Part shown: piece by piece, positions 270 through 64,000 of the stretch
Numbering within the stretch: position 1 is the first letter of the stretch
How the letters are laid out: every line of letters starts with the position of its first letter
Assembly: GCA_964304625.1 (NCBI GenBank)
Contig: OZ199838.1
Location: forward strand, 9,203,245 to 9,267,244
From: Kudoa neothunni
Taxonomy: Eukaryota; Animalia; Cnidaria
Reading direction: 5' to 3'
DNA length: 64,000 nt
Notes under the pieces: generated by a model
Databases searched by the model: none
Told to the model about the DNA's origin: nothing
Seen by the model: the letters and a program-made list of their open reading frames with translations, nothing else
Made by a program: the position numbers and the translations under genes

Positions 270-1780
270 AATGATTTTATATATAATTATGATTCAAGAA
301 CAAAAAAGGGACTTAGTTGGAGATGCCGTAACCGAGGATGTTGCGATAGAATCTATACATGTATTGAGAAAAAGAACGTGATTGATGAGATTAGTCACAC
401 TCACGAAAATCATAAAAATGAGATTACCAATTTGAAAATTCGCGAAAAGATCAGACATCAAGCGATTACTACTCCATTACCACCTTCTGGTATCATCATC
501 AAGCCCTTCGAAAATGAAAACCTGGATGAGATTAAAATTATCAACAAATACGAAAGTATCTCCGATTCAATAACTAAAATTAGGCGGCAAATGGGTATTA
601 AACATATCTCTAAATATGACGATATTCCAGAAAATTTCAAGAAAACACTCTCTGGTCAGCAGTTTTTGTATTTCGATAGTGGTGTTGGCTCTATTGATAG
701 AATCTTAGTATTTTACCATCCTAAAATAATCGAATTTTCGAATAAATCTTTGGTATAGTATGGTGATGGTACTTTATGGATTATGCCCCGAGACTTTTAC
801 CAACTTTTTACATTACGCGCTCAAATAGGAGCACATGTATCACCGATAGTTTTTTGCTTGATGCAAAACAAAAATTATGAAACATATTCTACTTTTTTCA
901 AAATGATTTATGATAAAGTTGGCCCCTATGAACCCAAATACTTTTTTTGTGATTTTGAAGTAGAAATTAGGAAATCGTTTAATGAGGTTTTTAAGAAAAT
1001 TGAAATTAAGCACTGCCATTTCCACTTCGCCCAAACAATATGGAGAAAAATACAAAATGTAGACCTGGTAAGTCTTTATAAGCAATCGAAGATCCTAAAA
1101 TCCTACATTGAATCAATAATATTATTATGCTACGTTCCAGAATGTGATGTTGTCAGGATCTACGAACTCTTAAAGGATACATTCAAAAATAAACTATGTG
1201 GTATTAAAATTGATGAATTCGATAAATTTTTAGAAAAGGAGTATATTTACACAAAAATTAATACAAGCATTGGATTGGTATCGTACGCGAAATTTTGGTC
1301 TGTATATTACCCTGTTCTTGGGGGGTATGGTTCCACAAATAATGCACTAGAACAGGGGTTCCCAACTGGGGGTGCCCGCACCTTAGGGGGTACGAACTTT
1401 GGTTTCAGGCAGTGCGAGATCCGATCAAAATTGAAAATAATTTTTGATAAATTTTAAGTCAGTTACACCTTATCGTATGCAAAGGGGTGCGAGTCCAGTT
1501 TCAGTTGGGAAGCGCTGCACTAGAAGCTTGGCACGGTTCACTGAAAAGAAAGACTCGCTCGGCGCATCTTAATCTAGGCAAATTCATAACGCTGTTACAA
1601 AAAGAAGTGAGGGAAACGCAAATAAAAACGAATAATCCAAGAAGTATTACAAATTTATCCGGTAGAAAATGTCTAATAAGCGAAATTGTTAGAAATTACA
1701 ATTTATATGATGGGCTTTCATACCTTGAAAGTTTAAGCATGTATTTTGGATTTAATTTGGACCAAAAAATATCAATTTAA
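270..1780 (+). pseudogene. MULE (Mutator-like) transposase pseudogene
   Basis: FLYWCH-like start (YIYNYD..SWRCRNRGC..H), V*YGDGT (stop at 756-758), CDFE, CHFHFAQ, and TNNALE|AWH split by a MITE; ORFs 378-758, 783-1457 and 1487-1780 are pieces of one gene. Confidence 0.85.
1353..1517. mobile_element. 165-bp hAT-type MITE
   Basis: TIRs CAGGGGTTCCCAACTG / CAGCGCTTCCCAACTG (reverse complement); perfect 8-bp TSD CACTAGAA at 1345-1352 and 1518-1525. Confidence 0.92.
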
Positions 1781-5880: not shown

Positions 5881-7890
5881 CCTTCTAAAGACCTTGGGGT
5901 CAAATTGACCCCAAATCGAAATTAATGAGCTCGTATCTTTATTTCTAATTTTCATTACCTCATTAAAATTTATGTATTCTCCTAACTTGTTATAAGGTAT
6001 ATTTTACGTAAGTATTATCTAATAATAAAAATCCGAAGTCAAAATAAAAAATTTTTATCTTCCAAAGACCTTGGAGTCAATTAGATCCCTGATTTTTTTT
6101 AAATCAATTTATCGAAAAAAATCTATATAATTGAACGACAAAATATTTTTAAAATCTATCAGCTATATTCTGAGTAAAACAGTGGTAAATGTAGAAGATA
6201 ATCCCATTTAATCTGGCACGTGTTGTTTCGGTGAAAACCCGCGTCTTGTCGCGTAATTAGCTTAATTTTGAGATTCACGTTTTTACAATAAAAAATAACA
6301 ATGATTTATTTTTCAACAATGAAAACACTTCAGCGTTTTATACAAAAACGTAAATTTTTGTTATACATTATTTTGAACGGTTATAACATCTATTCGCTGA
6401 ATGGGTTTGACAATAAAAGCAAAGACAATTTGTACAACGTGCTGAGGTTTTTTTATCATTTCCACGCGAACAAAAATTACAACGAGATCTTTTATCCTTT
6501 GTGAATTATAATGATGTTGGTATCGAAAGCGGTCATTTTCTTTTAATGATTCTTTTGTTATTATTATGTTTTCATATAATGCAAACTCATTTACCTATGA
6601 TAAATCCAGCATGTTAAAGAAAACAATCATTGGCCATCTTCTATTGGATCTCCTTACAGTGACAGATGCCAACATTTTATCAACTGAATCGACACCACCT
6701 TTCGCTTTATTATTAGCTAACAATAACATTAGGTTTTTTATAGTGTCGTTCCAGTTGATAACAAAATGACAGATTTATTTTTCTTATTTACATACGACGT
6801 TAGCATAAATTTTTCATAAAATAGAAAAGTTGTACTGAATACCTCCCTCTTTTATTGTGGCGTATAGTACCCAAATACGTTAGACGTTTACGTAACAACT
6901 TTGATGCGAGTGGGAGAGATGTAAAAAAGTTGTCTGCTACAATATTTCTTCCAGAATCAAATAATAGTTCAGACAATGCCATGACTATAGTTTCCCCAGC
7001 ATTTGAATTACGGACGTTGTCAATCCCATTTTTTCCGAGATACGGCGCAACATTTAAAACATATTTTTCCTGTTTGGAGGCAAATACTGTCTAAATAAAC
7101 ATTTCGCTCTAAAAGCGACCAACGGCGCTTATATGGTAACATCTTGGTTAGGATGAAAATATTGTTGTAACTGTTTCACCCATATTTGCCAAAAACTGCG
7201 GATCGGACAAAAGTTATCTGTCTCTCTTATTTCTGTTCTTGTCCTATAATCATCAAAATGAAGGGCTTTGGTGATTGGTTTAAATTTATTCTTCGAAAAA
7301 ATTTCTCGATAAATTTCCTTGCCTTTGACTAAACTAAAGACTTCTAGCAAAGGTTCTTTTCTATCTTTATGTACAGCCATAAGGATGAGAATATCCAAAT
7401 ATCCATTGAACTAAACGATATCAATATCAGTCCAGTCGTCTTCCAAATATTTCCTTCCAAATAAATTGGTCGATTTAATTATTTTTTCTCATATGGTTTT
7501 GTAACAATTATAAAATAACAATCTACATGATTTTGTACACGTTGTATACAATATGCCGTTACACCGGGATAGGAATTCATAATATTTTCGGCCACAGTTT
7601 TAGATGGTGTAGGTTGTTTGACGCTCCAAACAGTTCCATTTTTTCCTATAGTTGGATTTCCAGTAACATCAACTGCTAAGGATTCCTCCGAAGTTTCAGA
7701 AGATTTGGATAAAAAGTCATCAAATTCACTTCTTGATGATAGTAAATCTTCATTATATAACTCAGACTCTCTCAGAGACATTTTCCAAATAAAACCGCGT
7801 GCGCATATGTAATAAGATTCAAAAACACGCTTCTTAGAGATGTAATATAATTTAACGTAATATCAGAATTTTGAATGCCAAGAAACGTTA
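5881..7890 (-). mobile_element. Decayed piggyBac element A
   Basis: TTAA (5877-5880) followed by a CCTT terminus that is repeated about 180 bp inside; transposase pieces 6800-7781 with IVADNFFTS, LTYLGTIRHNK, LHFDD and GGVDSVD; acidic N-terminus; 5' terminus not found. Confidence 0.85.
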
Positions 7891-7896
7891 ATTTAA

Positions 7897-10119
7897 CCCT
7901 CTAACGGATTTGGGGTGTAATACACCCAAAACCACATTTAATCCGGAATAACATTTTACGACCTCATATCAAATCGAAATTTACGCTATTCTTCTATATT
8001 TATAAAACGTGCAACATATCAAAAATTTGGATAAATTATAAGTTCTAGTCATGCCGAAAAAAATCCATCCTTTAACGGGCTCGGGATGAAAAACACCCCA
8101 TTTTTTTTTCTGTTGAGTTTCCTCAAAAAATTATTTTGAGTTGATTTATAAATTTTTAGAAAATTCTATCGACGAATTTCGAAGAAAACCTGCAACTATT
8201 ATATTACTACTTCAATTCGATGCCGTTCGGTGATTTCTCGCAAATTTCCGTGCTCATAATATTAAGGATTTCCTATCATGCAGATTTAGAAACATCGATT
8301 TTTTCGGACATATCAAATTGTATTAATTATCATAAATATATTTTAGAATTATAATGTTGATGAATGCTCCCTCTGAAATTTCATTTTTTTAATTATGCGC
8401 CAATTTGGGGTATGTGAACAAGCGAGATTATTTGAATCCAAAGATTTCACGTGTTGGGCTATTCTGGTAGTCGAATCACAATGAGCACTTCTGATGAGTT
8501 TTTTGATGACATCCAATCTAATGGAAGCGAAATAAACGATAATTTGTTCGGATTATCATGCAATTCTGATTAAATATCCGAGAATGAAGGTGCTGACGAC
8601 GATACAACTATTAAAAGAGGAATCCTCTGGACATTGAACAAGCCAACATCGTCAAAACGTCGATTAAAAACATAATGGATTCTCACCCTGGCCCAACGGC
8701 ATATGCCTTACAAAGGATCCAAAATATTGTAGATTTTTTCGTTATTTTTTTTACGAATCATATTTGTCAAGAAATTTTAAAATATACTAATCCATTTGGA
8801 AAATCTCAATTTCGTGATTCTTTGATTGATTTAGATGAGACAGGATTCAAAGGATTTTTGGGGGTTCTAGCATTGATGGCTATCCATAATGATAGAGAAG
8901 AGCCTCTATTGGGACTTTTTAATTTAACTGAAGGAAAACGAATATATCGCCAACTCTTCACTTTGATGATTTAACCACAAGAGCACAAAGGAGAGAACGA
9001 GGCAAATTTTGCTCTATTCGCCATTTATGGAGCATGTGTATGAAAATACTTCCAATGCACCATTCACCTACTGAGGACGTCACGGTTGATGAGCAGCTGG
9101 TATCTTTTAAAGGATGATGTCCTTTTAGGCGGTATATGCCGTTGAAACCGGCGAAATACGGATTGAAAATTTTCCTTCTTGTAGATCCGGTACAAACTAC
9201 ATTATAAATATTTCCCCATATCTTGGAAAAAATGGAGACCAAGTTAGCCGATCCTCCAGCGTTGGTGAAAATATTGTGCTATCGCTGGCGACTCCACTGT
9301 ACCATACAAGCAGAAAAAATGTGTAATTCTCTTGTCAACGGGGACATTTAACGTCGATATATCTGGAAATCATAAAAAACCTCAGACTATATTCCGATAC
9401 AATAAAGAAAGGGAGTGTAGGCACGGTCGATAGAATGTTGGCATCCATATCTGTGCGCCGATTCAGCAGAAGATGGCCAATGATCGTATTTTATAACATA
9501 GTCGATCTATCCTTAATTAATGCGTTTGCATTATACAAAATTATATTTAATCAACCAACACAATTAAGACGTACATTTTTGAAGGAGATGGCGGGAGAAT
9601 TGTATCAACACCTAATTGATAAAAAATTAAAGTTAACTGGTTTAAAAAGAACAAAGTTCCAAAGCATAAATAATTTAAAGAATATATCAACCACCCCTAA
9701 ACAAAAGCGTTGTGCCTTCTGATTTCGCCAAAATGATAAAAAAAACATCTAGCAAATGTTCAAACTGCGAACGTTATTATTGCCAGCTTCATTCATCTAG
9801 AAAATGCTATAATTGCAATCAATCGTAATAATTATCTCTCCTGAAAATTTTAAAATTATAAGATTTGTTTCAAACTTGTTTTTTTACGCTACTTACATTA
9901 GGCTCTATTATTAGTTGTAGGTAGGTCACGAACTTTTAGCCGAACTGGATTAAGTTGAATGATAAATGTAAATTTACTTCAAATTCTATGGATAGAATTT
10001 TCTAAAAATTTATAAGTCAACTCAAAATAGTTTTTTGAGGAAACTTATTAGAAAAAAAAGACGAGGTGTTTTTCATCCCAAGCCCGTTAGAAGATGGAAT
10101 TTTTCGATAGCTTAGGGGG
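7897..10119 (+). mobile_element. Decayed piggyBac element B
   Basis: TTAA|CCCTCTAA ... TTAGGGGG|TTAA; about 105-bp subterminal inverted repeats (about 8066-8170 vs 9991-10096); relic transposase from about 8481 with VTVDEQL, PAKYGLK, RRWPMIVFYN and a Cys-rich C-terminus. Confidence 0.88.
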
Positions 10120-17086: not shown

Positions 17087-19227
17087 ATTCTAATTTAGTT
17101 AATGGCTAAATAAATAAAAACTTGGCATAATACAAAAACATATATCTACTTCTGTCGCTGCCTTAACATTCATCAACGCAGCAGTTCCATTCAGTCGGCC
17201 GGTTTCCTACATCAATATATAGATGACGCTGGAACATTTTTAGCGAAATTACTGATGGGTATTCCTTATAATTGGTAGATTTAGCAGGTTCAATTACTCC
17301 CAGCAATCTTAGTAACCATAATTAAAGATTTCTGATTCGCTTATGAGTTAATCGTACGCGTAAATGCTTTGAAGGAGCGATTCTTCCGCATTAATCCGAT
17401 AGTTTTAACTCCCCTTAGTATAATAAACCGCCAAGCTTACACCAACAATTATTTAATCTGGCAATTTTGATAGATTCTAATTATGTTTATGAATTTGTTT
17501 TTTAATCTAGTTTGATTGAACTTTCTCCCCATGGCGTAACATCCCATACTAATTCACGGATTCGTTGGAGTAGATTTAAGGAGATCAAATTCAAAAAATG
17601 TAACCTAGAGAAAGAATTTTAAAGCATTTATTAAACAAATAATTAATCGATATATGATATTCCGTCATTGTCCGAATCAAAATAATGCAATTACAACTAG
17701 GATCTTAGTGATTATTCATAAGTAAATGTTATTTCATCGCTCAAATAAATTTACAAAGTATTAAGCACCCGATCTCATAAAAGTATCTTAATTATCATTC
17801 AAAATAGCATAAAAACATCCGCGAAGTTTATTTCAATTTGAATACCCAACATTTATTATCCCCTTAAGACAACCTTAACGTGAAAATATTTCCATCTCAA
17901 CTAAATATATTTCAGCATTAAGTTAAAAAATAATATAAAATCATTTATTAGATTTTATAATTAAACAAATCAATGAAATAATCAAAATGAAACCTTTTTG
18001 CTTCACAGTCTCAATAATAATTTTACATTTGAACAATGTGGACAAATTTATATGTACCATTAAACTTTAAAGAAATTTGTTCTATAACGTTTCTCATAAA
18101 AGACTTTTACTTATAACCATACAATCCAGTTAGTTTTCTGGTCGAGGCAAATCTATATCCGATCGGGTTACATTTTAGAGATAATCAAGTTATTGAGCCG
18201 GTCAATACCGGGTTTTACAACCAAAACCGGACACTGTATATATTTAAGAAAAAATTTATTTACGCTGTATTTCAAATGAAAAAACAATAACTCAAATATA
18301 TTTTATAGAAATTAATGAAGATTGTAATAGTTTTTAATTTCTAGGAATGTCATCTAAGATGCGACACAATCCAAGAAAACTTTCACTATGTTGAAAGTAA
18401 TTCTTTAAATTCTCCTCAGTTACAGATTGAGAGGAAGTTGTCATTCTCTCTATTAAATCATTATGTCCACAGATAGGGCCATCTTTTCTAGTTTTCGATT
18501 TAATTTGAGAAGATACCTCCTCACAAGGGTTCAAAAATGACGAGTATCGAGGTAGATATTTTATCTCATAAGGATAGTCGTCAAAAAATTCTATATTAGA
18601 ATTATGGAATCTGACGTTATCCACGACAATAATGTAGTCTCCATCATCCAACACATTTTTTAACTGGTTTAAAAATTGTTGAAAAATTTCACAATTTACG
18701 CCCCTGGTAATGGCTTCACAGTAAACTACGCTGATAGCACTGACAGCCAGGATCATGGTTACGTTCGGGTCCTCTGCTGTTAGTCACCACTGGATTGGGA
18801 GTTATTCGAATAGGAGCGCGTCCATGAGAGCGTAGTAAATGGAGGAAACGGGGCTTTCATCGACGAATATCACCTTTCCATGCCGTACATTTATTGGTAA
18901 GTTCGTGTACCAACTGGCGTATTCTCTCCGTTCTTGCTTTACATCAGATGAATTGCTGCTTTGAGGTATCTGTCTTTTCATTTTAAATGATATGTTCATT
19001 TGTTGAGGCCATCTCCAAACGGTTATTTGACTCACATCCAAATTGAGTTTTTGGATCACAGACTGTAAAGTTATGGCACAGTTGTCCTAAATAAGCTGGA
19101 GAAGTTGGCGTTGACTTCCTCAGTAATCTTAATTTCCCTTGGGCCGCCTCTTACACCTTTTGTCTAGGTTTCCAATGTTTTATACCTTTTAACCATGCCA
19201 TGCAGGGTAGATTTTGGTATTCCTAAA

Positions 19228-22732: not shown

Positions 22733-25069
22733 TATATATATATATAAAATTCTTGTGCCTATCAGTGTGTCTCAGTTTGCATCAGTATCCAGGTGCCATG
22801 GAGAAACTTTTTTAAATACAGCTTTTAGAATACATTTAGAAGGATGATACTACTACGAAAATCGCTAATTCACTTATAATTTCTTACATAATAAATATCG
22901 GTATCAGAAGTAAGGAATTTTCTGATTGCCAATATCAATAAGCAGATTAAAAGTACCTGGATAATATTGATATTGGTTTACTTCGGAGTGATAGTCAATT
23001 AAAATGAAGTTTCACTCATTATATACAAAGAGAATCTTTTAATTATTATATAGAATGTGTTAAAAATGTTATGTATGCCGTTTGGAGTAATTTTAAGACA
23101 AATAAAACTATTAACGTCACATTTACTAGAGTTGTTTCATTTCCCCTAAAATTTGAAACATAACCAAATTATTTAGGATGTATTTCACTTTTTAAGCGTT
23201 ATGGATATAGTTAAGCGAAAAAGACTATTATCAATTGAAATAAAACACAGAATTCGAGATTAAAGTTGTTGCCATGTTGGAATAATTTAGGTCTCTATAC
23301 GGATTCTAAAAACGATATAAGATGTGTGTGGTGTTTTCAACTAATTAAATATTTGTGAAAACTTCATTAAATGAAAATTTCTTTTTATCAACATCGATTG
23401 AGATTGAAATTATATTCGTCTTTTCGATAAATTTTAACTCATTTTTTGACTTCCGAAACCTTCTGCAAAACGGCCGTCATAACTAATTCAATAAGTTTCT
23501 ATATTTTATGAGATAATTTTTAAAATAATGCCTAAGTTCTTAGCAACATAATTATTCCTTACCTCCAGCCAGACCTTAAGGTTGATATTCAAATCAATAT
23601 ACTGTTTTCTTTAGGCTCGCATTAATTCATTTTGATATAAAAGCTGCATGAAAATACGCGACATCGCTTTCTATACGTAATTTAAGAATTTATATTCACG
23701 ATTACTTTTACACAAAATACAGTCCCCTCTCAATACGTGCCGTGTAAGTTAATAAGAAATTATTGGTCTATTCGATCTAACCGATATTTTCACAAAGTTT
23801 TCGTTAATCTAATAATAGTTCAATACAAATATATTTTTTTAGGGAAAACAAACGGTACATTATTTTTAAAAGGGTGCACTCCTTCGAGAAAATCAGTTGA
23901 TATTTAAGCATTACTGTAATTTCTCAAACTAAAAACACCTTTACATTTTAGATTTATCGTATTTAATAATTAATTTTATATATTTTTGAACTAGTAAATA
24001 TTTTTGTTAAAAACAAAGATTGCATTTATTAAAAAATCGGGGAAATGACGCTAAAATTGTGAGTACGTAAGTTACCGCCCACAGCGTTTTTAAAACATCA
24101 TTATCGTCTTTTATACAATTGAAAAAAGGGAGTAAAAAATTATTTTTTTATCGTTTTGTCCGATTAATAATACATTTAAGAACCAGAAGGATTAATTTTT
24201 TTATCGCAAAATTTTGAAATGAACTAGAAGTCCTATTAGTGTTACTTAATGATTTTATTTAATGAATAAATGAACTTTAATCGTTAACTAAATTGCTCAT
24301 AAAATTAAGGTCATATTTTTGGTCAATAATTTGCCATTATAAATTTGAAAATACTTATTAATTTCTCTCAATACCTCTATTTATATTTGAATGTAAAGTA
24401 CGCACAGAATTTTGTTTTTCAAAATCATTATATTGCAAAAATAATGGCAAGCTTTAAAGGTAGCAATTAAAATAGAAAAATAAAATTTACAGGGTTTAAC
24501 GTGCTAACTGGATTAAATCTTCCATAGAATTTCTCCATTCAAAAATAAAACTAAAACTTAAAATTTCTCATCACATGATACCTACCAGGCAAAGCCGGGC
24601 ATTAGAGCTATTTACTTAAAGATCAGAGGTTTTAATATGCACCAGGTTTTAGCCTACTTGGCTAGGCAAGGACGCCTTCGCCAAGTGTAGCTTTTGCGCT
24701 AGTTGAAAGTAAAACTTTAAACCAGTGTTTCTTAAACCCTCATGCCTACGTGTCTCCACGTACTCGATGGACCTAACGTGGGCCCCACTTTGCCTTAATA
24801 CATAACCCCGGCGTAAATATAAATACCTCAAACTATTTATTTAATATCCAAAATTTTATTAAAATCCTTTTAATATACAATTAATTATTTTTACGGTTTT
24901 GTTTTAAAATACACAGTAAATATTTTCAATCACTAGGAGCCGAATTAATTTAGATATTAAAACAAAAAATTAACAACTTCAAATATATCCCAATAATTCT
25001 GGTTTAAATAAAAAAACTTCGACTAAACATAGACAATGACATATTATAATACACACAATCGAGCCTTAT

Positions 25070-25192
25070 AAATATATCAGCTTTTAGATCTGCAATTAGA
25101 AACTGCATTGACGTGCAAACTGACAGAAAACTTGCTATACCAAACATTCTATTGTGAAAGGATGGAATCCGCCACTTTTAGAATATTTGGAA
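25070..25192 (-). ncRNA. Candidate box H/ACA snoRNA
   Basis: Hairpin 1 (25190-25140), H box ATAGCA (25138-25133), hairpin 2 (25124-25076), ATA box (25075-25073); 14-15 nt from pocket to box; pocket TTTGCACGTCA. Confidence 0.72.
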
Positions 25193-25259
25193 AGAACGAA
25201 AAACAAACACATTTAACGGAAATCAGACATATGATATCTACGATTTGGTTTCAATTGTT

Positions 25260-25852
25260 CTAAAATTTGGTAAATTCCTTCTTTCCTTCAGTTTTGGAAA
25301 CTACACGGATAACATTGAAACGAACAGTTTTACTGAGAGGTCTGCATTGACCAACAACAACTTGGTCACCGACGCTCATTCCCCTAAAACAAAATGAAAT
25401 CAATCATGTAACTAGGTGTACCTGAAACATGGGGAAACATGCACAGAAATGTTCTTATGTCTTTTCTCGTAACGTCTATACTTCTTGATGAAATGAAGGT
25501 AGTCGCGTCTGACAATGATGGTGTTCTTCATTTTCATTTTGAGCACAGTTCCAGTGAGTATTTTTCCACGAATACTAACAGTACCGGTGTACGGGCACTT
25601 TTTGTCAATATAATGTTCATTAATAGCCTAAATACGAGAATATTTAGCTTATACATTATCAAAAATCAAACCTCTTTGGGTGTTTTGAAACCCAAACCGA
25701 TGTTTTTGACAAATCTAGTGGCTCTGGGTTTCTTTTCAGTTCCCAGCTTTTTATGGTTAAGAAATATCTGGGGTTGCTTTTGAAAGGCTCTCTCGGTCTA
25801 AAATAATTATATCCAGATTGTGAAATAGATAAATGCAACCAACTTGCTCCAT
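25260..25852 (-). CDS. RPS11: 40S ribosomal protein S11 (uS17)
   Basis: Exons 25852-25844, 25797-25672, 25627-25422, 25383-25260; [12 protein letters not shown]...GLGFKTP...DKKCPYTG...KYRRYEKRH...[12 protein letters not shown]; introns 46, 44 and 38 nt. Confidence 0.97.
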
Positions 25853-51832: not shown

Positions 51833-54800
51833 TTAGTTAGAATTATTATATCTCGTTTCATCAAAAAGAATCGCGGCCATCAGCGCCATTCTCACAAAAA
51901 CGCCATAACGGACTTGTCTAAAGTATGCCGATCTGGGGTCACTATCAATCGAACAGCTAAACGAAAGTTTTAGTCTCAGATAATAACACATATGGATACT
52001 GGATTTCATCTACACGAGGCAATGGATGCAAAACGACCATGTTGGATTTGGCTTTAGTTAGAAGCTTATCGTCGATTGTGAAACAACCTTTGTGTTTGTT
52101 GTATTCGTCCTCAGAGGAGAACCTTTCTTTTTGGATACGAGTCATGTATAGAACATCACATTTGGATATCACATCGTCAATATTGTCACACTCGATTTGT
52201 TTGATTTGACTGTTCTGAGAAACATAATTTTTGATTTCCTGTGGCATAGCCAACTCTTTAGGTGAAACGTAGATCAGCGAATCTGTTTCATACTGAGTGA
52301 GTAGTTTAGCCAACGAATGTACTGTGCGACCATTTTTCAAATCTCCAACAAAAGCAATTCTCAATTTATTCACTGTACCTATTTCTTCTCGAATGGTGAA
52401 GCAGTCTAATAAGGCTTGCGATGGGTGTTCTCCAACACCATCACCTGCATTTATCACAGGTATTGTCATGAGAGAATTAGCCAACTTAATTGTACCAACT
52501 TTGGGATGTCGAAGAACCATAGCGTCAGCGAAACTAGAGAGAACTCGTAGAGTGTCTTCCAAAGTTTCGCCTTTGGTCATTGAGCTATCTGATGGGTTGA
52601 AGCACAACACACTACCACCAAGACGTTGTATTGCACTTTGAAACGATGACATTGTACGGGTGCTACTTTCGAAGAAGGCCAAAGAAATGACTCTACCGCG
52701 AAGGAGTGGTGGTACGACACCATTGGAATCGGTGATTTTTTGGAATTCAGATGCCAACTTAAACAAAAATCTCAGATGATCTCTGTTGCAAGCTTCGCTA
52801 CTCAGGAAACTTTTATTTTGAAAATTAATCCTGAAATTTGACCTTAAAAGTTGAATAATTCTCAATGATGAACCTTGGACAGTATCGATATTCATGTTGG
52901 ATGCGATGAATGCATTTTCAGACACATGACGGATTCGTAACGATGAATCATTATCCAAAGTGTTTTTATCAGTAATAATATTTTTTTTGTGCGTCTTGTG
53001 TGATTGCCACAGTTTTGAGTTGTCAACAGCCGAATCCTCCGCTGTAGTTTCGGCCCAAATTTTCGCGTTAATACCAAAACCTGGATCAACAAAAATTTTC
53101 CCTGCCACCATCACCATTCGACCTCTAATGAATACTCTCAACACTTTTGCACACACAACTTTTCCATCGAAAGGAGTCCAGCCTGCTTTAGTATATTGTT
53201 CACTGGACTTGATTGTGTACTCGGGCCCGAATTCGATATCCACAAAAGTTGAAGGTTGGTCCGTTAGGTGGAATATTCTCTTTGGATTGTCGTGCAACCT
53301 GATTACGATGTCCTCAATAGTTAGTCTGCCTTCTTTCACAGCAGTGAACAACAAAGGGAGCATGGTTTCAACACCTGGGAAGCCTGGAGGGGGCGAATCA
53401 CCATCTTTTTCCTCTAGCAAATGAGGTGCATGATCAGTGGCAAAGCAATCAATGTATTCGAGATTGGCCCATAAGGCATCCTGATCTTCCTTACTGTTTA
53501 AAGGTGGTTTCACTGTTTTTCTACCGTTGCAGCATGACGAAATGGGAGATATTGTCGAAATATCGAAATCTTCAGCGCACAAAAACAAATGATGAGGTGT
53601 AACCTCACAGGTGATTGGAAGTCCTTGCTGCTTGGCGATTCTGATCATGTTAATTTCCTCTTTGGTGCTGATGTGACAAATGTGGACTGGCTTTTTGTAG
53701 ACTGAAGCCAAAAAGAGAATAGCAGAAAGTGTTGCACCTTCCGCATGACACAAGATTGGCACTTTCCATCGTTCATCCCAATTCTCAAAGTGTTTAATCC
53801 ATTTCTCAAATGATGCCATTTTCAGAGTAGAAAAAGTGTCATTGAGATACATTTTCATACCGAATGAACGAGAAACCAGCTCGCTATTGATTACACAAAC
53901 GTTATTTTCTGTTGCACCAATGTAGAGACCAAAATCACAAAAAGTTTTTGAATTTGCTAATTTTTCAACCATTGACAACGTTTCCATATCAACAACTGGT
54001 GGGTGGGTGTTTGGCATACACAATACACAAGTAATGCCACCCATTATGGCGGCCTTAGTGCCAGTGGAGAAATCTTCTTTGTGCTCGCCACCGGGTTCTC
54101 TCATGTGTGTGTGGACATCAACAAGGCCTGGCAATCTTATGATATTTCCTGAAAGGATCGTATCAACTGTAGGATCCACAGTAAGTGAACAATGGTAATA
54201 TGCAAGTGATTTGGTAAACATTCTAATGTTATTTTTTTCAGTTATCAATGGTATCGAATAATCCACTGCGGCTCTACGAATTTGATAGCCAAGTGTGTCA
54301 AAGTTGGCATCGGACTTTAGGTAGTAATTCATTGGAACATTGATAATCAAGTCGATATGATGTTGCGTGAAGAATTTTTTAACATCAAACAAAAGCGAAT
54401 GTTGTCGGTGTTTGGACCTGATGCTACCATCTGTGTTAGTTGAGTCGGGTCGTTCATCCAACGAGAACACACCCTTTTTCATATTGATACCATGCTCTCG
54501 ATAGAAATCAACCGTGCCACTCGATCCGTACAAGGTGTAGCCATATTGTTGTAGTTGATAGAGAGACTCAACCAAGTCTAACTTGGTTTTATAAGGACCA
54601 ATAGAGACAAACACATGTTTCTTTTGTGGGATTTTAAACCCGGTAGAAACAAGAGCCTTCAGATAGGCGTCATAATGATTTTTACCAAAGCAAGCAACTT
54701 CGCCTGTGGATGCCATTTCAACCCCAGTTCTAACGTCTGCGTATGTGAGTTGTGAAAATGAAAACTGTGGCACTTTAACTGCCGCCCTTATTTTTGAATA

Positions 54801-57800
54801 ATCAAAAACTATCGGCTCCACGCTTATTCCAATGAAGATCTGGGTCGCAATAGCCATGAAATCGCAATTCAAAACTTTGGAAACGAATGGAAAAGATCTA
54901 GACACCCGCAAATTGCATTCAATCACTCTCAGTTGGTTGTTGGAAGCGATCAGCTGCAAATTGAAAGGACCAGACACATTAAGAGCCTCCGATATACCAA
55001 ATGTTATTCGATAGATCTCATCTAGAGTTTCGGTGTTAAGATTTTGCGGTGGTAACAGCAGAGACGCGTCACCAGAATGAGTACCAGCATTTTCTACGTG
55101 CTCAGAAACTGCTATGCAAATTATTTTCCCATTGGAAGCTACTGCATCCACGTCAATCTCCTTAGCATTCAAAATAAACTTTGTAATCACCACAGGATAT
55201 TCTTTGGAGACAGTGACTGCATTAGACAAATAGGACTTTAGTTCGTCATCATTTGAGGCAACATTCATAGCTGCTCCACTTAACACATACGAAGGACGTA
55301 CCAAACATGGATAACCAACTAGCTTGCAAAACTCCTTGGCTTCATCAAGTGTGGTCAACTCTTTCCATTCCGGTTGCTTAATACTGATACTGTCGATGAG
55401 GCGTGAAAATTTAAACCTGTTTTCTGCAGTGTCGATCATCTCGGGTGGAGTACCCAAGATATTGACACCTGCCCTGTGCAGTCCCATTGCAATATTATTT
55501 GGGAGTTGGCCGCCCATCGACAAAATTACACCAAACGGTTTCTCAAGTGCATATATATCTAGCACGACTTCCAATGAAATTTCGTCAAAATATAACCGAT
55601 CGCATTCATCATAATCTGTGCTCACAGTTTCAGGGTTAAAGTTTATCATAATGGGTTTCCAACCTTGACGTCTAAGCTCTTTGATACAGGAGACAGAACA
55701 ACAATCGAATTCGACACTACTTCCAATACGGTAGACACCGGAACCCAACACAATTATACTTTTTGAAATAGCTCCATTCTCAAATTTCACGTCATGTTCC
55801 TCAGAAACATAAGTTAAGTAGAGATAGTTGGTAGTTGCTATGTATTCGCCGGCAACGGTATCAATCTGACGAACAAATGGAGTGATTGAATTTTTATGAC
55901 GATAATTGCGAACGGCTACAGGTGTAGAACAGAAAATATCAGCCAACTGAATATCAGAGAATCCCAACTGTTTCAACTTTCTAATATATGACACTTCAAG
56001 CGAATCAAATGAAAAGTTCGGACTTTGTTCAAAGAGTTGTTTGGCTCGCTTCGAATGCTCCACAACATTTTTCATACGATAAAGAAACCATTTGTCGATT
56101 TTAGTTAAATTGTGGATATGCTCAATTGTTTGGTTAGCGTCTAACGCAGCTGCAACAAAAAATATTCTCATATCTGATGGATGACATAACTCGTCATCAT
56201 TAGGTGTAAGTCCAGCTCCATTAAAACCTGTGGCACCAACATCCACCATTCGGATTGACTTTTGTAGAGCCTCTTCAAACGAGCGACCAATTGCCATAAC
56301 CTCTCCAACACTTTTCATAGAGGTGCCAATTCGTGTGGAAATTTTTGAAAATTTACTCATATCCCATCTTGGCATTTTAATCACAACATAGTCTAAACTT
56401 GGTTCGAAACAAGCACTAGTCCAAAATTTTGTGCCATCAATCGATCCAGAAGTGGCAGTGTTGGCAAGATTAGGTAGTGAAACTCCAAGAGACAGCTTTG
56501 CTCCCACATAAGCTAGGGGATATCCGGTGGCTTTGGATGCCAAAGCAGAACTTCTTGATAATCGAGCATTCACCTCAATAATGTAATATTGTTTGGAATA
56601 CGGATCAAGCGCATATTGAATGTTACACTCACCAACAATCTTCAAATGACGTACCACCTTTATTGCTACTGCTCTCAGGGTGTGATAATCTGAATCGTCC
56701 AATGTCTGACTAGGAGCAATTACAATAGATTCACCAGTGTGAATACCAAGCGGATCAATATTTTCCATATTACAAACGGTTATACAGTTATCGTTCGCAT
56801 CTCTCACCACCTCATATTCCAATTCCTTCCAACCAATCAGCGATTTATCAATTATTATTTGCGGGGTGCACTGAAGAGCTGTTGACACCAATGATTCTAG
56901 TTGAGAGGGATTGCTTGCGAAGCCAGAACCTTTGCCACCAAGTGTGTAAGCGGCACGAATCATAACTGGATAATGGAGTTGCTCAGCGGCAGACAATGCT
57001 TCTTGAACGCTGGTAGCAGTGATACTTGGGGCCACAGGTTCGCCGATTTCTCTCATTTTATTGGCAAAAATCTGCCTATCTTCTGTCCAACGTATTGTCT
57101 CCACATTGGTACCCAATACGGTGACATTATATTTGGTTAAAATGCCCAAACGATCTAACTCTAAGCCACAATTCAAAGCGGTTTGTCCACCGAATGATAA
57201 CAATATCGCATCGGGACGTTCAAGCTCAATCACTTGAGTAACACATTCGGTGTTAACGGGCACAAGATAAACTGAATCAGCCAAACCGCGCGTAGTTTGA
57301 ACAGTTGCCACATTCGGATTCACCAATATAGTGTAAATGTTTTCTTCCTTCAGTGCTTTGATAGCTTGTGACCCTGAATAATCAAATTCACCAGCTTGGC
57401 CAATACACAAACCACCGGAGCCAAGTATTAAAACGCGTCTCTTATATTTCGTGTCTGTAGGCAACTGTTGCCATGCAAGAATGTTCTCTGGAACTTTGGA
57501 AAACACACCTCGACCACCAAGGCAATTTTTAAAAGTCTCCTCAAAATTTGGAATATTATTAGCGATCTTGTTATTCGATCGACGCGACTTTGTGTAAGAT
57601 GAGCACATATTCTCAAACACTGTGAACAAAAACTCAGAACCTCTGGGACCGGCAGAATGTTCTGGATGGAATTGGACAGAAAAATATGGAAGCGTTTGAT
57701 GATATATGCCTTCAACTGATTTGTCGTTAATATTTTGGTAGAGCATTTTCCACCTGCTGTCTACCAATGATGTATGTGGCGTTAGGGAAACGGCATATCC

Positions 57801-58791
57801 GTGATTTTGAGAAGTAATCACACAACTATTGCAGATGGTGTCAACACATGGTTGATTATGTCCACGGTTGCCATACATCATTTTATAGGTTGTGAAACCA
57901 GCCGCTAAACACAATATTTGATGCCCCAAACAGACGCCCATAATTGGGATGTCGATTTCGTTTTCAATAATTTTTCTAACATTCTCAACCAATGTCATGT
58001 AATCTTCAGGATCTCCAGGTCCATTACTCAGGTAGATCGCATCATATTTATGGGAGAGAATTTCATCCGTGAAATCATAGTTTAAAGGAACCATTCTAAT
58101 AGATATACCATTCTGGAGGAGATATTTCAATTGGCTGAATTTAATACCACAATCCACCACAAGAACATTCAATCCCTTGTCACACTTTGATTTATAATTG
58201 CAAATATCCTCGTTCATTTTAAGTTTTTGAAATCGTTTACTAATAGAATCCGGGCTGAGGACAGTTTGATCAACTTTATTATCAAAGCAGCTAGCATCAT
58301 TGTTGGAATGTGAGTCCAAAATAATCTTTCCTTTGGTGGTTCCTTTATCACGTAGATACTTGGTGAAACTTCTAGTGTCTATTCCTTCAATGCCAACAAC
58401 TTTATGATCAGTTAACCATTGGCTGAGAGATTTCCTGGAGAGATGATGACTTTCTTCGCCATTTGGAATGCACTGTGTCACCACTAGACCAGATACCCAC
58501 AGTCTGTTGGACTCGAAAAATTTAGGAAAACCATATTCATCCTTAAGTTCTTCATCTGGAACTCCGTAGTTACCAACTAACGGATAGGTCATAACTAAAA
58601 TCTGTCCAAAATAGGAAGGATCTGATAAAGTTTCAGAGTATCCAACCATTCCGGTCTGGAACACTATCAAGAGAACAATTTATAGGAATATGGCAGTTAT
58701 TAAGCCTACCAATTTCGCCACATGTATTGCCTACATATCCGAAGGGAGTTCCTCTAAATTCTTTCCCGTCTTCAAGCACTAATGTCGCCAT
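51833..58791 (-). CDS. CAD: CAD: glutamine-dependent carbamoyl-phosphate synthetase / dihydroorotase / aspartate transcarbamylase
   Basis: Exons 58791-58710, 58663-52000, 51956-51833; GATase CLGHQ and FHPE; CPSase [10 protein letters not shown] and [10 protein letters not shown]; DHOase DVHTH, KMY, TDHAPH; ATCase [16 protein letters not shown] and [11 protein letters not shown]. Confidence 0.98.
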
Positions 58792-60365
58792 AATTAAGCC
58801 ACCTTGCTTTCTAATCTTCGGAATAACTACAAAGTACTTAAAATTAAATGACAATGAATTCTGGTAGATTTTCGTCCTAGAACTTAGCTCATTTATTAGT
58901 TATTAGCCTGCGTAATAATAAAACTGTTTTTCCGAAACCGTCACAGTAGATTTGAAATAAAATATGGTTGATAAATTCGCGTAACCTTAAGAGCTTAACT
59001 GATTGTTATATTTAATCCTAAAATCTCTAGGTAGCACTTAAAAAAAATCCGGAAATTTCCTATTTATTATAAGGTTGTTAAATGTATGTATAATCTACAT
59101 TAGGTGTTATACACAAGTTTATAGAAGAGAGACATCTTAAGTTCATTACACTGGTCCTATCCTCTAAAAAATAGTCACGCGTTAAGTATTAAGTTTAATG
59201 CAGATTTCAATTCCAACTCTGGCCTGTAAATACTCCGTTTGGTAGAGATTCCATTAGAATCAATATTAAAATTGAACAATTGCAATATTTACGATTTCAC
59301 TAATATAGCGGAATTATGAAAGAGTAAAGAAAGATATTCACATTAAGAACTCACCTATAGCTACTTATTATTCTTGTGACGAACATCGAATTAAATATTA
59401 AATATTTATTTAACAAACACAACGTTTTCTCTCAAATTAGATCCTAGTTATTTGTTCACACGGTAACTACATTACAAGATTAGCGTCATCACCTCATACC
59501 TGTGGAATAATGATGGAGTAGGAAAAATATCCACTTTTACAAAAGCATGCGACCCACAACAGGACTTTGCATTGTGACCCTTGAACGATTTGATACGGTT
59601 GTCCAAAAATAAACTTTCACGCGTGCACAAACGGACTTTAAGTTTTGGAGCTACAATGTCATCAATTTATTATTGTGTGATTTCGAAGTTTTACATCGAC
59701 CTGAGATACACTGCGATGTAAATAAATTAGGTTAAAAATTTGTGGCTAATGTGAAGTGTATGCATGTTGCGGGGGCGCCATATGTCGTAAACCTTCGTGT
59801 ACATGTTATGGTTTAGGATTAAATAATTGGGCTAATTGTATGCTTGTTTTTAGTAAAGTGCATTGATATTAGCAAAATCGAATTATTTGGTACGACCAAC
59901 ATTCGTCGACGCGTGCGTATTGACTGATTTAAATCCTTATAAAATTTGATTATTTTTTTTAAAAAATAGACAACTAAACAAATATATAATGCATAAAATC
60001 AAATTAAATTATAAATTATGATATATATATATATATACAAATCACGACTGGGGTCATTTTCGACGTTAGAACCATAAAAATAATACATTTCCAAACAAAT
60101 TTCTAAAAATTCTTCCCTACTGTGTCACAGCGGATTCTCCGATGCCTAATTGGGAAGCGCCGACCTAACGTAGAAAAATTTGATCTCAGCTAAATCTTCA
60201 TCAAAATTATTTTATTTGTATACACAAAAGTTATTTTTCAATAATATCACAATTTTTGAAATAAAATTATTGGTCTCTGCAGTAGCAATATAAGTCAGTC
60301 TTGCACATCAGGCTCACGAAGAGACCAACCGCGCACGCAGCAGATTCTCGTGGTCATCCTCGGAA

Positions 60366-60898
60366 ATGTCGCAACGTCTTACACTCCGTAGAAAACTCTC
60401 ATATAACACACGCTCTAATAAGAGAATAGCGTAACCAAAATTTTTGACGTTATGCATTGTAATTTACATATTTAGCACAAAGACACCAGGTATGTCTCAG
60501 TAGAGTGAGACTAGTTCGGTTATTGTTGTATTATTAGGTCAGAAATTGGTGTATTTGTATTCAAAGAAGAAATCATCCCCAGTCAAATGTGGTGATTGTC
60601 ATTGTACTCTTCAAGGAGTAAGTCTTATACGTTCAAATGGTTGTTTTGACGTAGTGTGTGTTGTAGGTTGTGGTGAGAAGACCATGCAAAATGAGATCCA
60701 TCTCCAAACGCCAAAAAACTGTCACAAGAGCATACGGAGGTTCGCGTTGTGCACAATGTGTAAAGCAAAGGCAATTTTTTGTTACTAATTTTACATCGTT
60801 TTTATCTAATCATCATCTACTGTTATAATAGAATCCTCCGTGCATTTTTCATGGAAGAATATGCTTTGGTGAAATTGGCCACATCCAAAGTTAAATAG
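60366..60898 (+). CDS. RPL34: 60S ribosomal protein L34 (eL34)
   Basis: Exons 60366-60430, 60476-60489, 60538-60617, 60667-60770, 60832-60898; MSQRLTLRRKLSYNTRSNK..KTPG..CGDC..RAYGGSRCAQCV..RILRAF. Confidence 0.96.
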
Positions 60899-61037
60899 AT
60901 TAGTTTATGGTGTTAGTGTATCTCAATAACTTTGACTATTTGGGTGTGTGTGTTTGAGTTTAATTAACGTGTTTTTTAACTGCGTGCGCACAATTTCCTC
61001 TCGCGTATTACGATTAGGGTAAGCATAAGCAGTCACA

Positions 61038-61918: not shown

Positions 61919-62349
61919 GTAATTTTTTATTAAGAAATCTTCGCCATTTTCTATTAAATTAAAAATTTTTTTGCTACTTGTTTCACTGATTTATTGTAAT
62001 TTGGTGGTGAAATTAGGTCGGAGCAATCGTTTTATTAAGCGTGCACTTAATCTTTGTTTGGCACAAATCTTATTTTTAGATTCGTTCGCGCGTTTAATTT
62101 ATACTTATTAAAGCTGCTTTTGGTAATCTCATCGGCACTTTTATCGATTAAACGCTTAAAATAGCTTCTCTGTCAGTTTTGTGGGTGGAAAATTTTATTC
62201 TACAATGTAGTTGTATCATGATTATGATTCGAGGTAAATTAAGTGGAACTTTTTTGCGTTAATTGTTGAGAATTAACTTTAAAATCGTATGCAGCCATTG
62301 AATGTACGCAACAAATTGATAAGGTTGATAATATTTACAAATGAGAATT

Positions 62350-63753
62350 CAGTTTAATTATGCCTTGTTAATGAGACAATAAAGCAATGTTTTCAGAGTT
62401 GGTACGTTTAAGGTCAACGAGTTTTGAGATAGAATTATTATAAGTGCATGTAACACAATGAGATAATGTGTTAGAAGACATGATACAAAGTATCTGTTCA
62501 TATCCCTCAAATAACTCAAAAGTCAAAATGAATATGACGGATTACAATAATTATTCGGCATCGAGCATCAGATTATATTGTATCCCTATTGCATAAGATG
62601 GCTATCACTTGAGCAAGTTATTCATAAAATGCTGGACGGATAGACAGTTCTCACGTTTCTCAAGGTTGGGCCATAAGAAAACAGGGCTAAACCCGCACCT
62701 AAAATATTTGCATCTCTATTTAAATCCGTACATAAAATGTACTATGCTTTTTTAACTTTTTCTTACCTATATTCAATAAATTCACAGTCGAATCACAATA
62801 TGAGAGCTTAAATTGCATAAACTAAGGAATTCCTTGAGAAATATTATAAAAATATGTAATTATTTTTTGAAAAGTCTGATCAAAAAATAACACCTTGTGG
62901 AGCTTAAATCTTAAATACCCCTTAAATTATATTCATCCGGTAAGTTTTATTATGGGTCAAAAGTAAAATCAGGTTAGAATAAAGATACTACTGGAATAAG
63001 TACTCAAGATCTTGTTTGCTTTCTTAACAAATCTCTGGATCTCCATTTATTTCTGACGAAACAGATATTTCAAAGGTTTTTAAACATCGCAAAATTTATG
63101 CCAATACAGTTATTTGAAGCAATGCTTCCTGCAAATGTCAATGAAGGAAAACCCCTCTCAAAGAGATTTCCAATTATTATTGTTGAAGATGAGTATTTAA
63201 ATTTGGATAGTTAATAGATAGAACTTAACCCGTAATACAACGGTCATTTCATTTAAAATGATCCAAAGAAATATTGGTATGTGGTAACAAATGAAGGAAG
63301 AGGAGAAACATTTAAGTATCGATTACTGTCAAAATTAATGCTGTCTTTACTTGCTTCGTATCATTCGTGTTGATCGGCTGACAGATTATGTTCATTAGCG
63401 AATAAAAACAAAGTTAAAACAGATTTATATTTGGAGATGAAACAATAAATGCTCTACTATATACTCAGTGTTTACTAAGAGACGCCTGTTGCATGAGATG
63501 GAATCCATGTGACCAATTGACTCAAACGATGGAAAAAATGGACCAATATGATAAGGACAGTGATAATGAATTAATATTTTGATATAGAAATAGATCCTAT
63601 CAACTATTTTTTCTGTTTCGATTAGTTTAATGTTGATAGAATTATATTATTTGTATTATTTTTGAAATATTGTACCTTTTTTTAAATTTTAGTGCGATTT
63701 TAAATTTGTTGGTACTATTCGGCACGATTTAAAAAAATCGTCTGGCAACCCTG
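62350..63753 (+). mobile_element. hAT transposon relic inside the presumed TCP1 intron
   Basis: KYRLLSKLMLSLL...SADRLCS resembles the hAT C-terminal dimerisation motif; right terminus TGGCAACCCTG ends at 63753; left boundary approximate. Confidence 0.55.
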
Positions 63754-64000
63754 GTGAGAAAGTTTATAATCTTAAAAAATTAGCCTATCTTAAATTCCTG
63801 AAAACAATTAAAGATTTCTCAACAAAATTATTCCAAAACGATAATATGAGTACAAATTCACGGGATTAATATATTTAGAGGTTCGTTTTCATTGAGTTTA
63901 GTTGGAAAGGGGCCCTTGAACCAAAAAGACTGAGAATCATTGCATTGAAGATGTTGTCACGTGATAGTTAATTTTAACACCTTATATTTAACTAGTTTTA

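What the first reader, a model, noticed from the sequence alone, without database searches (positions are those of the whole stretch)
25023..25259. Candidate H/ACA snoRNA just behind the RPS11 stop codon, possibly in a 3'-UTR intron
Seen: about 70 nt after the stop, on the same strand, a roughly 123-nt hairpin-H-hairpin-ATA unit. It has a 12-bp stem CCAAATATTCTA/TAGAATGTTTGG, an H box ATAGCA, and a second hairpin GTCAGTTT..TGCAGTT/AATTGCA..AAGCTGAT, with 14-15 nt from pocket to box in both halves. Recalled knowledge: the pocket strand TTTGCACGTCA is the complement of the conserved LSU rRNA motif UGACGUGCAAA, and the other strand (ATC) would pair if the target reads GAU-UC-UGACGUGC, predicting pseudouridine at the U of UC. 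Inference: the RPS11 coding introns (38-46 nt) are too small to host a snoRNA. A GT at 25231 or 25217 and a TTTAG ending at 25023 could define a roughly 200-nt 3'-UTR intron starting under 50 nt from the stop, so it should escape NMD. This would be a way to keep snoRNAs linked to ribosomal-protein genes after intron miniaturisation.
Basis: partly seen in the sequence, partly recalled or inferred. Interest (0 to 1): 0.78.

Follow-up and report, generated by a model that had tools for sequence, protein, structure and literature searches.

The report
Ribosome guide RNA behind RPS11 stop
A likely small nucleolar RNA gene sits 70 bases after the stop codon of a ribosomal protein gene in what is likely a myxozoan fish parasite; it is predicted to guide one pseudouridine in ribosomal RNA and is likely released from an intron in the gene's 3' untranslated region, an uncommon but known arrangement.

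Summary
At 25190-25070 (minus strand, 70 nt after the RPS11 stop) lies a hairpin-ATAGCA-hairpin-ATA unit (fold z -4.47), the most stable of 17 loose H/ACA-shaped loci in the window. Its 3' pocket pairs 8+3 bp around an unpaired UC, 14 nt from the ATA box, with a conserved eukaryotic LSU site (G[A/G]U-UC-UGACGUGC; 27 of 55 fetched LSU loci); 0 of 300 shuffles match it. The 5' hairpin has no conserved target. Rfam gives no family. A CCT1 tree places the genome with Myxozoa. One error: there is no GT at 25231; the best donor is GTA at 25241. The 3'-UTR intron (25241-25023) is plausible: both spacers are intron-like and no AATAAA/ATTAAA precedes the RNA. It is unproven: myxozoan splice signals carry almost no information, the RPL34 3' flank scores equally intron-like, and no RNA data, relatives or own LSU sequence were obtained. 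RPL34 has no such RNA behind it. snoRNAs behind ribosomal-protein stops (Plasmodium) and in 3'-UTR introns (Drosophila mfl) are published. Verdict: very likely a real H/ACA guide, new member of a known kind.

The parts
25260..25852 (-). RPS11 (uS17) gene, exons 25852-25844, 25797-25672, 25627-25422, 25383-25260; introns 46, 44, 38 nt; 154 aa
   Evidence: Pfam Ribosomal_S17_N and Ribosomal_S17 on exon 3; spliced frame open with a single terminal stop
25070..25190 (-). Predicted box H/ACA snoRNA, about 121-123 nt (ends inferred from structure)
   Evidence: fold z -4.47; best of 17 architecture loci; no Rfam family
25140..25190 (-). 5' hairpin: 12-bp lower stem, 3x2 internal loop 15 nt from box H, two-part upper stem; no conserved rRNA target found
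25133..25138 (-). Box H, ATAGCA (ANANNA), single-stranded
   Evidence: unpaired probability 0.87-1.0
25076..25124 (-). 3' hairpin: 8-bp lower stem, 9x7 pocket, 7-bp upper stem
25109..25119 (-). 5' guide strand TTTGCACGTCA; the 8 nt 25116-25109 lie in the open pocket and pair with LSU UGACGUGC
25087..25089 (-). 3' guide strand ATC; pairs with LSU GAU (3 Watson-Crick) or GGU (one G-U); 14 nt to the ATA box
25070..25075 (-). Tail box ATA (in place of ACA) and three more nucleotides
   Evidence: sequence
25023..25241 (-). Inferred 219-nt 3'-UTR intron, GTA donor 25241 (alternatives 25228, 25217) to TTTAG acceptor 25023; spacers of 51 and 47 nt around the snoRNA
   Evidence: inference; no junction reads
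25191..25211 (-). G/U-rich tract directly before the snoRNA: intron interior, or downstream element of a poly(A) site
   Evidence: TGTGTTTG here and about 50 nt after the RPL34 stop; 8 copies in the window
24836..24860 (-). First AATAAA hexamers after the stop (24860, 24841; ATTAAA at 24874, 24845): candidate poly(A) signals

Best explanation
This is likely a box H/ACA snoRNA that is predicted to guide pseudouridylation of the U in the UC of LSU rRNA G(A/G)U-UC-UGACGUGC through its 3' hairpin, and is likely made from the RPS11 pre-mRNA as part of a 3'-UTR intron (25241-25023). Shown: the fold, both boxes, the 14-nt spacing and the 8+3 bp complementarity to other eukaryotes' LSU. Inferred: dyskerin/NOP10/NHP2/GAR1 bind the nascent RNA; the spliceosome removes the 219-nt intron; the lariat is debranched and trimmed by exonucleases to about 122 nt; the mRNA keeps 18 nt before the junction (inside the recalled 50-55 nt rule, so not an NMD target) and ends near the AATAAA at 24860. 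The 5' hairpin would be structural or guide a site absent from the references. Guide output would thus be tied to RPS11 transcription without needing a long coding intron. Odds that it is a real H/ACA guide by any route: about 0.87.
For: Fold z -4.47. Lowest summed energy of 17 architecture loci, -32.6 against -29.0 for the next. The 3' pocket scores 35, top of 34 hairpins tested (next 31, 30, 29), and 0 of 300 best-of-two shuffles reach it on 6,276 nt of reference rRNA, also when only the open pocket is used. The target form is in 27 of 55 LSU loci; the strings of five high-scoring control targets are in 1-2 of 55. Geometry meets the published rules: about 15 nt, at least 8 bp, at least 3 bp a side. 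Intron route: GTA opens 7 of 10 introns in the window and is the myxozoan consensus; TTTAG closes 5 of 10, including all 3 of RPS11, and 25023 is the first TAG after the RNA; both spacers score intron-like (0.14, 0.12; top 0.4-0.5% of random 47-mers) while the 18 nt before the donor (-0.26) and the 162 nt after the acceptor (-0.04) do not; no AATAAA or ATTAAA lies between stop and RNA. Precedent: Drosophila mfl 3'-UTR introns.
Against: No RNA reads, no orthologue and no covariation data. The organism's own LSU site is unread: 17 of 55 reference loci have A at the target position. The reference set for the shuffle test was chosen to include the GAUUC form. Only 3 bp on one side, the published minimum; the pocket partly self-pairs in the free RNA. 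The 5' hairpin has no conserved target and the tail is ATA, not ACA. Splice-site matrices from 10 introns do not single out these sites (acceptor 25023 exceeded by 36% of all AGs, donor 25241 by 43% of GTs). The RPL34 3' flank, which holds no snoRNA, is just as intron-like (0.15) and shares the G/U tract, which may mark a poly(A) site before the RNA.
Confidence: 0.5

Rival explanations
1. Same H/ACA guide, but not intronic: it is exonic 3'-UTR or lies just past the RPS11 poly(A) site, and is released from read-through RNA by 5'-3' and 3'-5' exonucleases that stop at the snoRNP.
For: G/U-rich tract 49-69 nt after the stop mirrors that about 45-60 nt after the RPL34 stop, where it follows AATAAC as a downstream poly(A) element would. 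Plasmodium has 6 of 18 C/D snoRNAs downstream of ribosomal-protein genes, one shown by RT-PCR to be in the RPL7a 3' UTR. Splice motifs are near chance.
Against: No AATAAA, ATTAAA, AATAAC or AATAAT between stop and RNA; only GTTAAA at 25217, abutting the tract. The spacer after the RNA is intron-like up to the TTTAG and not beyond.
Confidence: 0.31
2. Same guide, transcribed on its own from a promoter within or just after the RPS11 last exon (Pol II or Pol III).
For: One loose A-box-like match at 25142 and a T7 run at 25016 that could end a Pol III transcript.
Against: No B box in 25420-25000; only 69 nt between stop and RNA; same strand as a strongly expressed gene class.
Confidence: 0.06
3. 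Not a snoRNA: a chance or regulatory 3'-UTR structure whose rRNA match is coincidence.
For: Loose H/ACA shapes (17 loci) and conserved-rRNA antisense 11-mers (19 places) are each common here; no Rfam family; no conservation data; 5' hairpin without target.
Against: The coincidence of best fold, both boxes, 14-nt spacing, unpaired UC and a conserved target is not seen at any of the other 16 loci or in 300 shuffles.
Confidence: 0.13

Closest known systems
Eukaryotic box H/ACA snoRNAs (PMC6049503, PMC6800473)
   Same: Hairpin-hinge-hairpin-tail fold, box H ANANNA, 14-15 nt from pocket to box, bipartite pairing of 11 bp around an unpaired UN
   Different: Tail ATA rather than ACA (a variant I recall as common); only one hairpin has a detectable target; no Rfam 15 family matches
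Drosophila mfl/Nop60B 3'-UTR intron snoRNA cluster (PMC1821038)
   Same: snoRNA in an intron after the stop codon of a ribosome-related gene, released from the host pre-mRNA
   Different: There C/D RNAs (DmSnR60, snm60) in several introns tied to alternative poly(A) sites, shown by experiment; here one H/ACA RNA, intron only inferred
Plasmodium snoRNAs behind ribosomal-protein genes, e.g. PFS9 in the RPL7a 3' UTR (PMC2656528)
   Same: snoRNA shortly after the stop of a ribosomal-protein gene in a parasite; that paper also reports a snoRNA that is intronic in one species and behind the stop in others (PFS10)
   Different: C/D class, 367-629 nt from the stop, treated as exonic UTR; here H/ACA, 70 nt, in an animal
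snoRNA-bearing introns kept in intron-poor fungi, RPL7/snR59 and NOG2/snR191 (PMC8476143)
   Same: Guide RNA stays linked to a ribosome-related host under genome streamlining
   Different: Those are coding-region introns kept at full size; here the coding introns are 38-46 nt and the guide lies after the stop

Membership tests
Box H/ACA snoRNA | Two stable hairpins with hinge and tail | tested here: met
Box H/ACA snoRNA | Single-stranded box H (ANANNA) in the hinge | tested here: met
   ATAGCA 25138-25133, unpaired probability 0.87-1.0
Box H/ACA snoRNA | ACA (or accepted variant) 3 nt from the 3' end | tested here: inconclusive
   ATA at 25075-25073 at the right place; acceptance of AUA is recalled, and the true 3' end is not mapped
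Box H/ACA snoRNA | About 15 nt from pocket top to box | tested here: met
   14 nt (3' hairpin), 15 nt (5' hairpin, fold); rule
Box H/ACA snoRNA | Bipartite pairing, at least 8 bp and 3 a side, around an unpaired UN in rRNA | tested here: met
   3' hairpin 8+3 bp with reference eukaryotic LSU; rules. Not met for the 5' hairpin
Box H/ACA snoRNA | Target site present in the organism's own rRNA | not tested
   own LSU not obtained; 27 of 55 reference loci fit, 17 have A at the target
Box H/ACA snoRNA | Discrete stable RNA bound by dyskerin that directs pseudouridine | not testable with these tools
   needs RNA and protein experiments
Described Rfam snoRNA family | Score at or above a family's gathering threshold | tested here: not met
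   0 hits in the window; no H/ACA family at E up to 10
Box C/D snoRNA | Box C RUGAUGA and antisense element directly before a D or D' box | tested here: not met
   no box C in 25300-24900; nearest CTGA is 29 nt after the antisense element
Intron-encoded snoRNA (3'-UTR intron) | Lies between used splice sites of a host transcript | tested here: inconclusive
   GTA 25241 and TTTAG 25023 fit local usage but are near chance; no RNA reads

The most novel reading that the evidence does not exclude
As myxozoan coding introns shrank below snoRNA size, guide RNAs were moved as a class into dedicated 3'-UTR introns placed within 50 nt of the stop of ribosomal-protein genes: in effect a snoRNA set between two minimal-intron halves (51 and 47 nt). 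This locus would be the first instance of a genome-wide solution, and its target a pseudouridine not yet mapped in cnidarians.
Probability: 0.15. Interest if true: 0.65.

Novelty: new member of a known kind. Interest (0 to 1): 0.38.

Why it matters
Animal snoRNAs mostly live in introns (PMC2656528, background), and myxozoans have the shortest introns among animals (PMC13644364, whose main text does not mention snoRNAs). Where their guide RNAs went is an open and cheap-to-test question. This locus gives a concrete candidate, a predicted modified base and a predicted splice junction. It does not by itself show a new mechanism, since both candidate routes have precedents.

Tried and rejected
No whole genome is held, so other ribosomal-protein genes outside the window and the organism's rRNA could not be searched. 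Sequencing runs: no RNA holder listed. One RNA run with the same label laid 0 reads, which is no test. Contigs of 3 runs of one sample cover the gene without any splice joint and so behave as DNA; no other letters were listed inside the snoRNA. Reading the organism's own LSU site from those runs gave no result, so that site stays open. Relatives: 54 RPS11-like loci from metagenomes were at most 75% identical over the full exon (one partial match 79%), and none held the 9-nt guide motif on either strand (0 of 54), so no covariation test was possible. 18 motif matches in viral contigs were not rRNA. C/D reading rejected. Rfam miRNA, C/D and leader matches at E 0.016-8 are far below gathering scores and rejected. 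5' hairpin target: none conserved in 55 loci (strict) or 12 of the longer ones (one mismatch allowed); snRNA targets not tested. Splice-site matrices were uninformative. Five paper searches with the term '3 utr' returned 0 although two matching papers are held, so those blanks say nothing; the target-motif search was also blank. Whether this uridine is a known pseudouridine elsewhere is unresolved: one paper was not held and the Euglena supplement could not be read. Three look-ups in earlier findings returned nothing.

Full report
Observation. RPS11 has four exons and introns of 46, 44 and 38 nt, and splices to an open 154-codon frame ending at 25260. Seventy bases later begins a unit that folds as two hairpins with a single-stranded ATAGCA hinge and an ATA tail; -34.2 kcal/mol, z -4.47, 0 of 200 shuffles as stable. 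The fold is unchanged inside 25259-25023 and the H box is over 0.86 unpaired. Rfam 15 gives no match at gathering level in the window and no H/ACA family at E up to 10.

Organism. RPS11 exon 3 is at most 79% identical to any of the 120 listed hits and CAD at most 65% to the listed, almost all animal, proteins. For CCT1, three named myxozoans are among the top five hits. In a tree of the window exon with 40 rows that I picked from the 120 listed, it is sister to Thelohanellus, Henneguya and Myxobolus (100/97), within a cnidarian-like group that holds Hydra. Branches are long, no non-myxobolid myxozoan was named in the set, and I ran no clade test, so 'myxozoan outside Myxobolidae' is likely, not proven. 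Ten introns located in the window are 38-61 nt, longer than the 22-27 nt medians of myxobolids; Kudoidae are reported to have longer introns (PMC13644364, main text read in parts 1 and 2 of 3, supplements not opened).

Is it more than chance? Each feature alone is cheap. A loose scan for hairpin-ANANNA-hairpin-ANA gave 21 rows, which I collapsed to 17 loci, and 19 places in the window are antisense to a conserved rRNA 11-mer. The candidate has the lowest summed energy (-32.6, next locus -29.0). I fetched 55 loci with an LSU motif from contigs in prokaryote genome bins; the 3 checked by Rfam are eukaryotic LSU. They were selected for the UGACGUGCAAAUCG part, are not independent, and three come from archaeal records. 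The 3' hairpin pairs its 5' pocket strand with UGACGUGC (8 bp, extendable into the lower stem) and its 3' strand AUC with GAU, leaving UC unpaired 14 nt from the ATA. The GGU form pairs too, with one G-U. G[A/G]UUC precedes the motif in 27 of 55 loci; 17 of 55 have A at the target. On 6,276 nt of reference rRNA, chosen to include the GAUUC form, 0 of 300 best-of-two shuffles reached the score, with the full strands (35, maximum 33) or the open pocket alone (28, maximum 27). Among 34 hairpins of the 17 loci it ranks first, with 31, 30 and 29 next; five high-scoring control targets occur in 1-2 of 55 loci, though many loci do not reach those positions. The geometry meets the published rules: about 15 nt, at least 8 bp (PMC6049503, abstract and introduction), at least 3 bp a side (PMC6800473, abstract and first part of the discussion). 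The site corresponds to about yeast 25S U872 by recalled numbering, from no call. The 5' hairpin has only a 3x2 loop and no conserved target. A C/D reading fails for want of box C and an adjacent D box.

How it is made. No RNA evidence was obtained. For a 3'-UTR intron: the first GT after the stop is GTA at 25241, the donor of 7 of 10 local introns and the myxozoan consensus; the first TAG after the RNA is TTTAG at 25023, the acceptor of 5 of 10 and of all three RPS11 introns. The spacers on either side of the RNA, 51 and 47 nt, each the size of one local intron, score as intron-like in dinucleotides (top 0.4% and 0.5% of random 47-mers), while the 18 nt before the donor and the 162 nt after the acceptor do not; the first AATAAA is at 24860. 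Against: GTA occurs in 47% of random 50-mers and TTTAG in 9% of 60-mers; matrices from 10 introns do not single out either site; the RPL34 3' flank scores equally intron-like and carries the same G/U tract about 50 nt after its stop, behind an AATAAC, as a downstream poly(A) element would. So RPS11 may be cleaved before the RNA, which would then be trimmed out of read-through RNA. I put the intron route at 0.50, the exonic or post-poly(A) route at 0.31, own promoter at 0.06 and no snoRNA at 0.13.

The evolutionary claim. The one other ribosomal-protein gene found in the window, RPL34 (60366-60898), is followed after 139 nt by CCT1, with no H/ACA-shaped locus, C/D-shaped locus, antisense 11-mer or Rfam match there: 0 of 1. 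No CCT1 exon was found in the 2,081 nt after 61919, so long introns may exist in this genome. None of 54 distant RPS11 loci held the guide motif. Relocation after intron shrinkage is therefore a hypothesis from one locus.

What is known. Plasmodium has 6 of 18 C/D snoRNAs downstream of ribosomal-protein genes, one shown in the RPL7a 3' UTR and one that is intronic in two species and behind the stop in others (PMC2656528, abstract and passages). Drosophila mfl encodes snoRNAs in introns of its 3' UTRs (PMC1821038, abstract and passages). Intron-poor fungi keep snoRNA-bearing introns of RPL7 and NOG2 (PMC8476143, passages). A search for myxozoa plus snoRNA listed 5 papers, each with one mention of snoRNA and none on the subject by title (listing only); the myxozoan intron paper has no mention in its main text. 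That is the whole basis for calling it undescribed, in a library that lacks most subscription papers. The Euglena modification tables (PMC7672448, two passages seen, supplement unreadable) may bear on whether this uridine is a known pseudouridine.

Verdict. Very likely a real H/ACA guide with a well-defined LSU target, outside Rfam's families, in a lineage where I found no snoRNA described. The 3'-UTR intron is the likeliest route but an even bet. New member of a known kind; interest 0.38.

Noticed in passing
window 60771-60831 (+): The last RPL34 intron (61 nt) opens with GC rather than GT; splicing it gives an open 109-codon frame.
   Followed up: partly
window 60899-61037 (+): Only 139 nt separate the RPL34 stop from the CCT1 start on the same strand, with a TTAG about 20 nt before the ATG; tight enough to ask about operon-like transcription or trans-splicing.
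   Followed up: no
window 51834-58821 (-): CAD (pyrimidine synthesis) is almost free of introns: one open frame of 2,240 codons, a 43-nt intron at 51999-51957 and probably one short intron near the start, in a genome whose other genes have many short introns.
   Followed up: partly
window 61920-64000 (+): No further CCT1 exon found after residue 263: an intron of at least 2,081 nt, or a broken gene. No Rfam match there.
   Followed up: partly
window 24300-24700: A multi-copy element begins about 370 nt past the snoRNA: contig depth rises from under 13 to several hundred, with many diverged copies.
   Followed up: no
window 759-1454 (+), 6803-7410 (-), 8615-9719 (+), 18337-18783 (-): DNA transposon remnants: MULE, two DDE_Tnp_1_7 copies in pieces, DDE_3.
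   Followed up: no
window 24878, 24888, 25390: Single-base indels between the window and the contigs of the DNA runs, suggesting small assembly errors or alleles; none falls in the snoRNA.
   Followed up: no
L019-L073: 55 stretches in bacterial and archaeal genome records carry the LSU motif (about 320 estimated in the collection); the 3 checked are eukaryotic rDNA, i.e. contamination of those records.
   Followed up: partly
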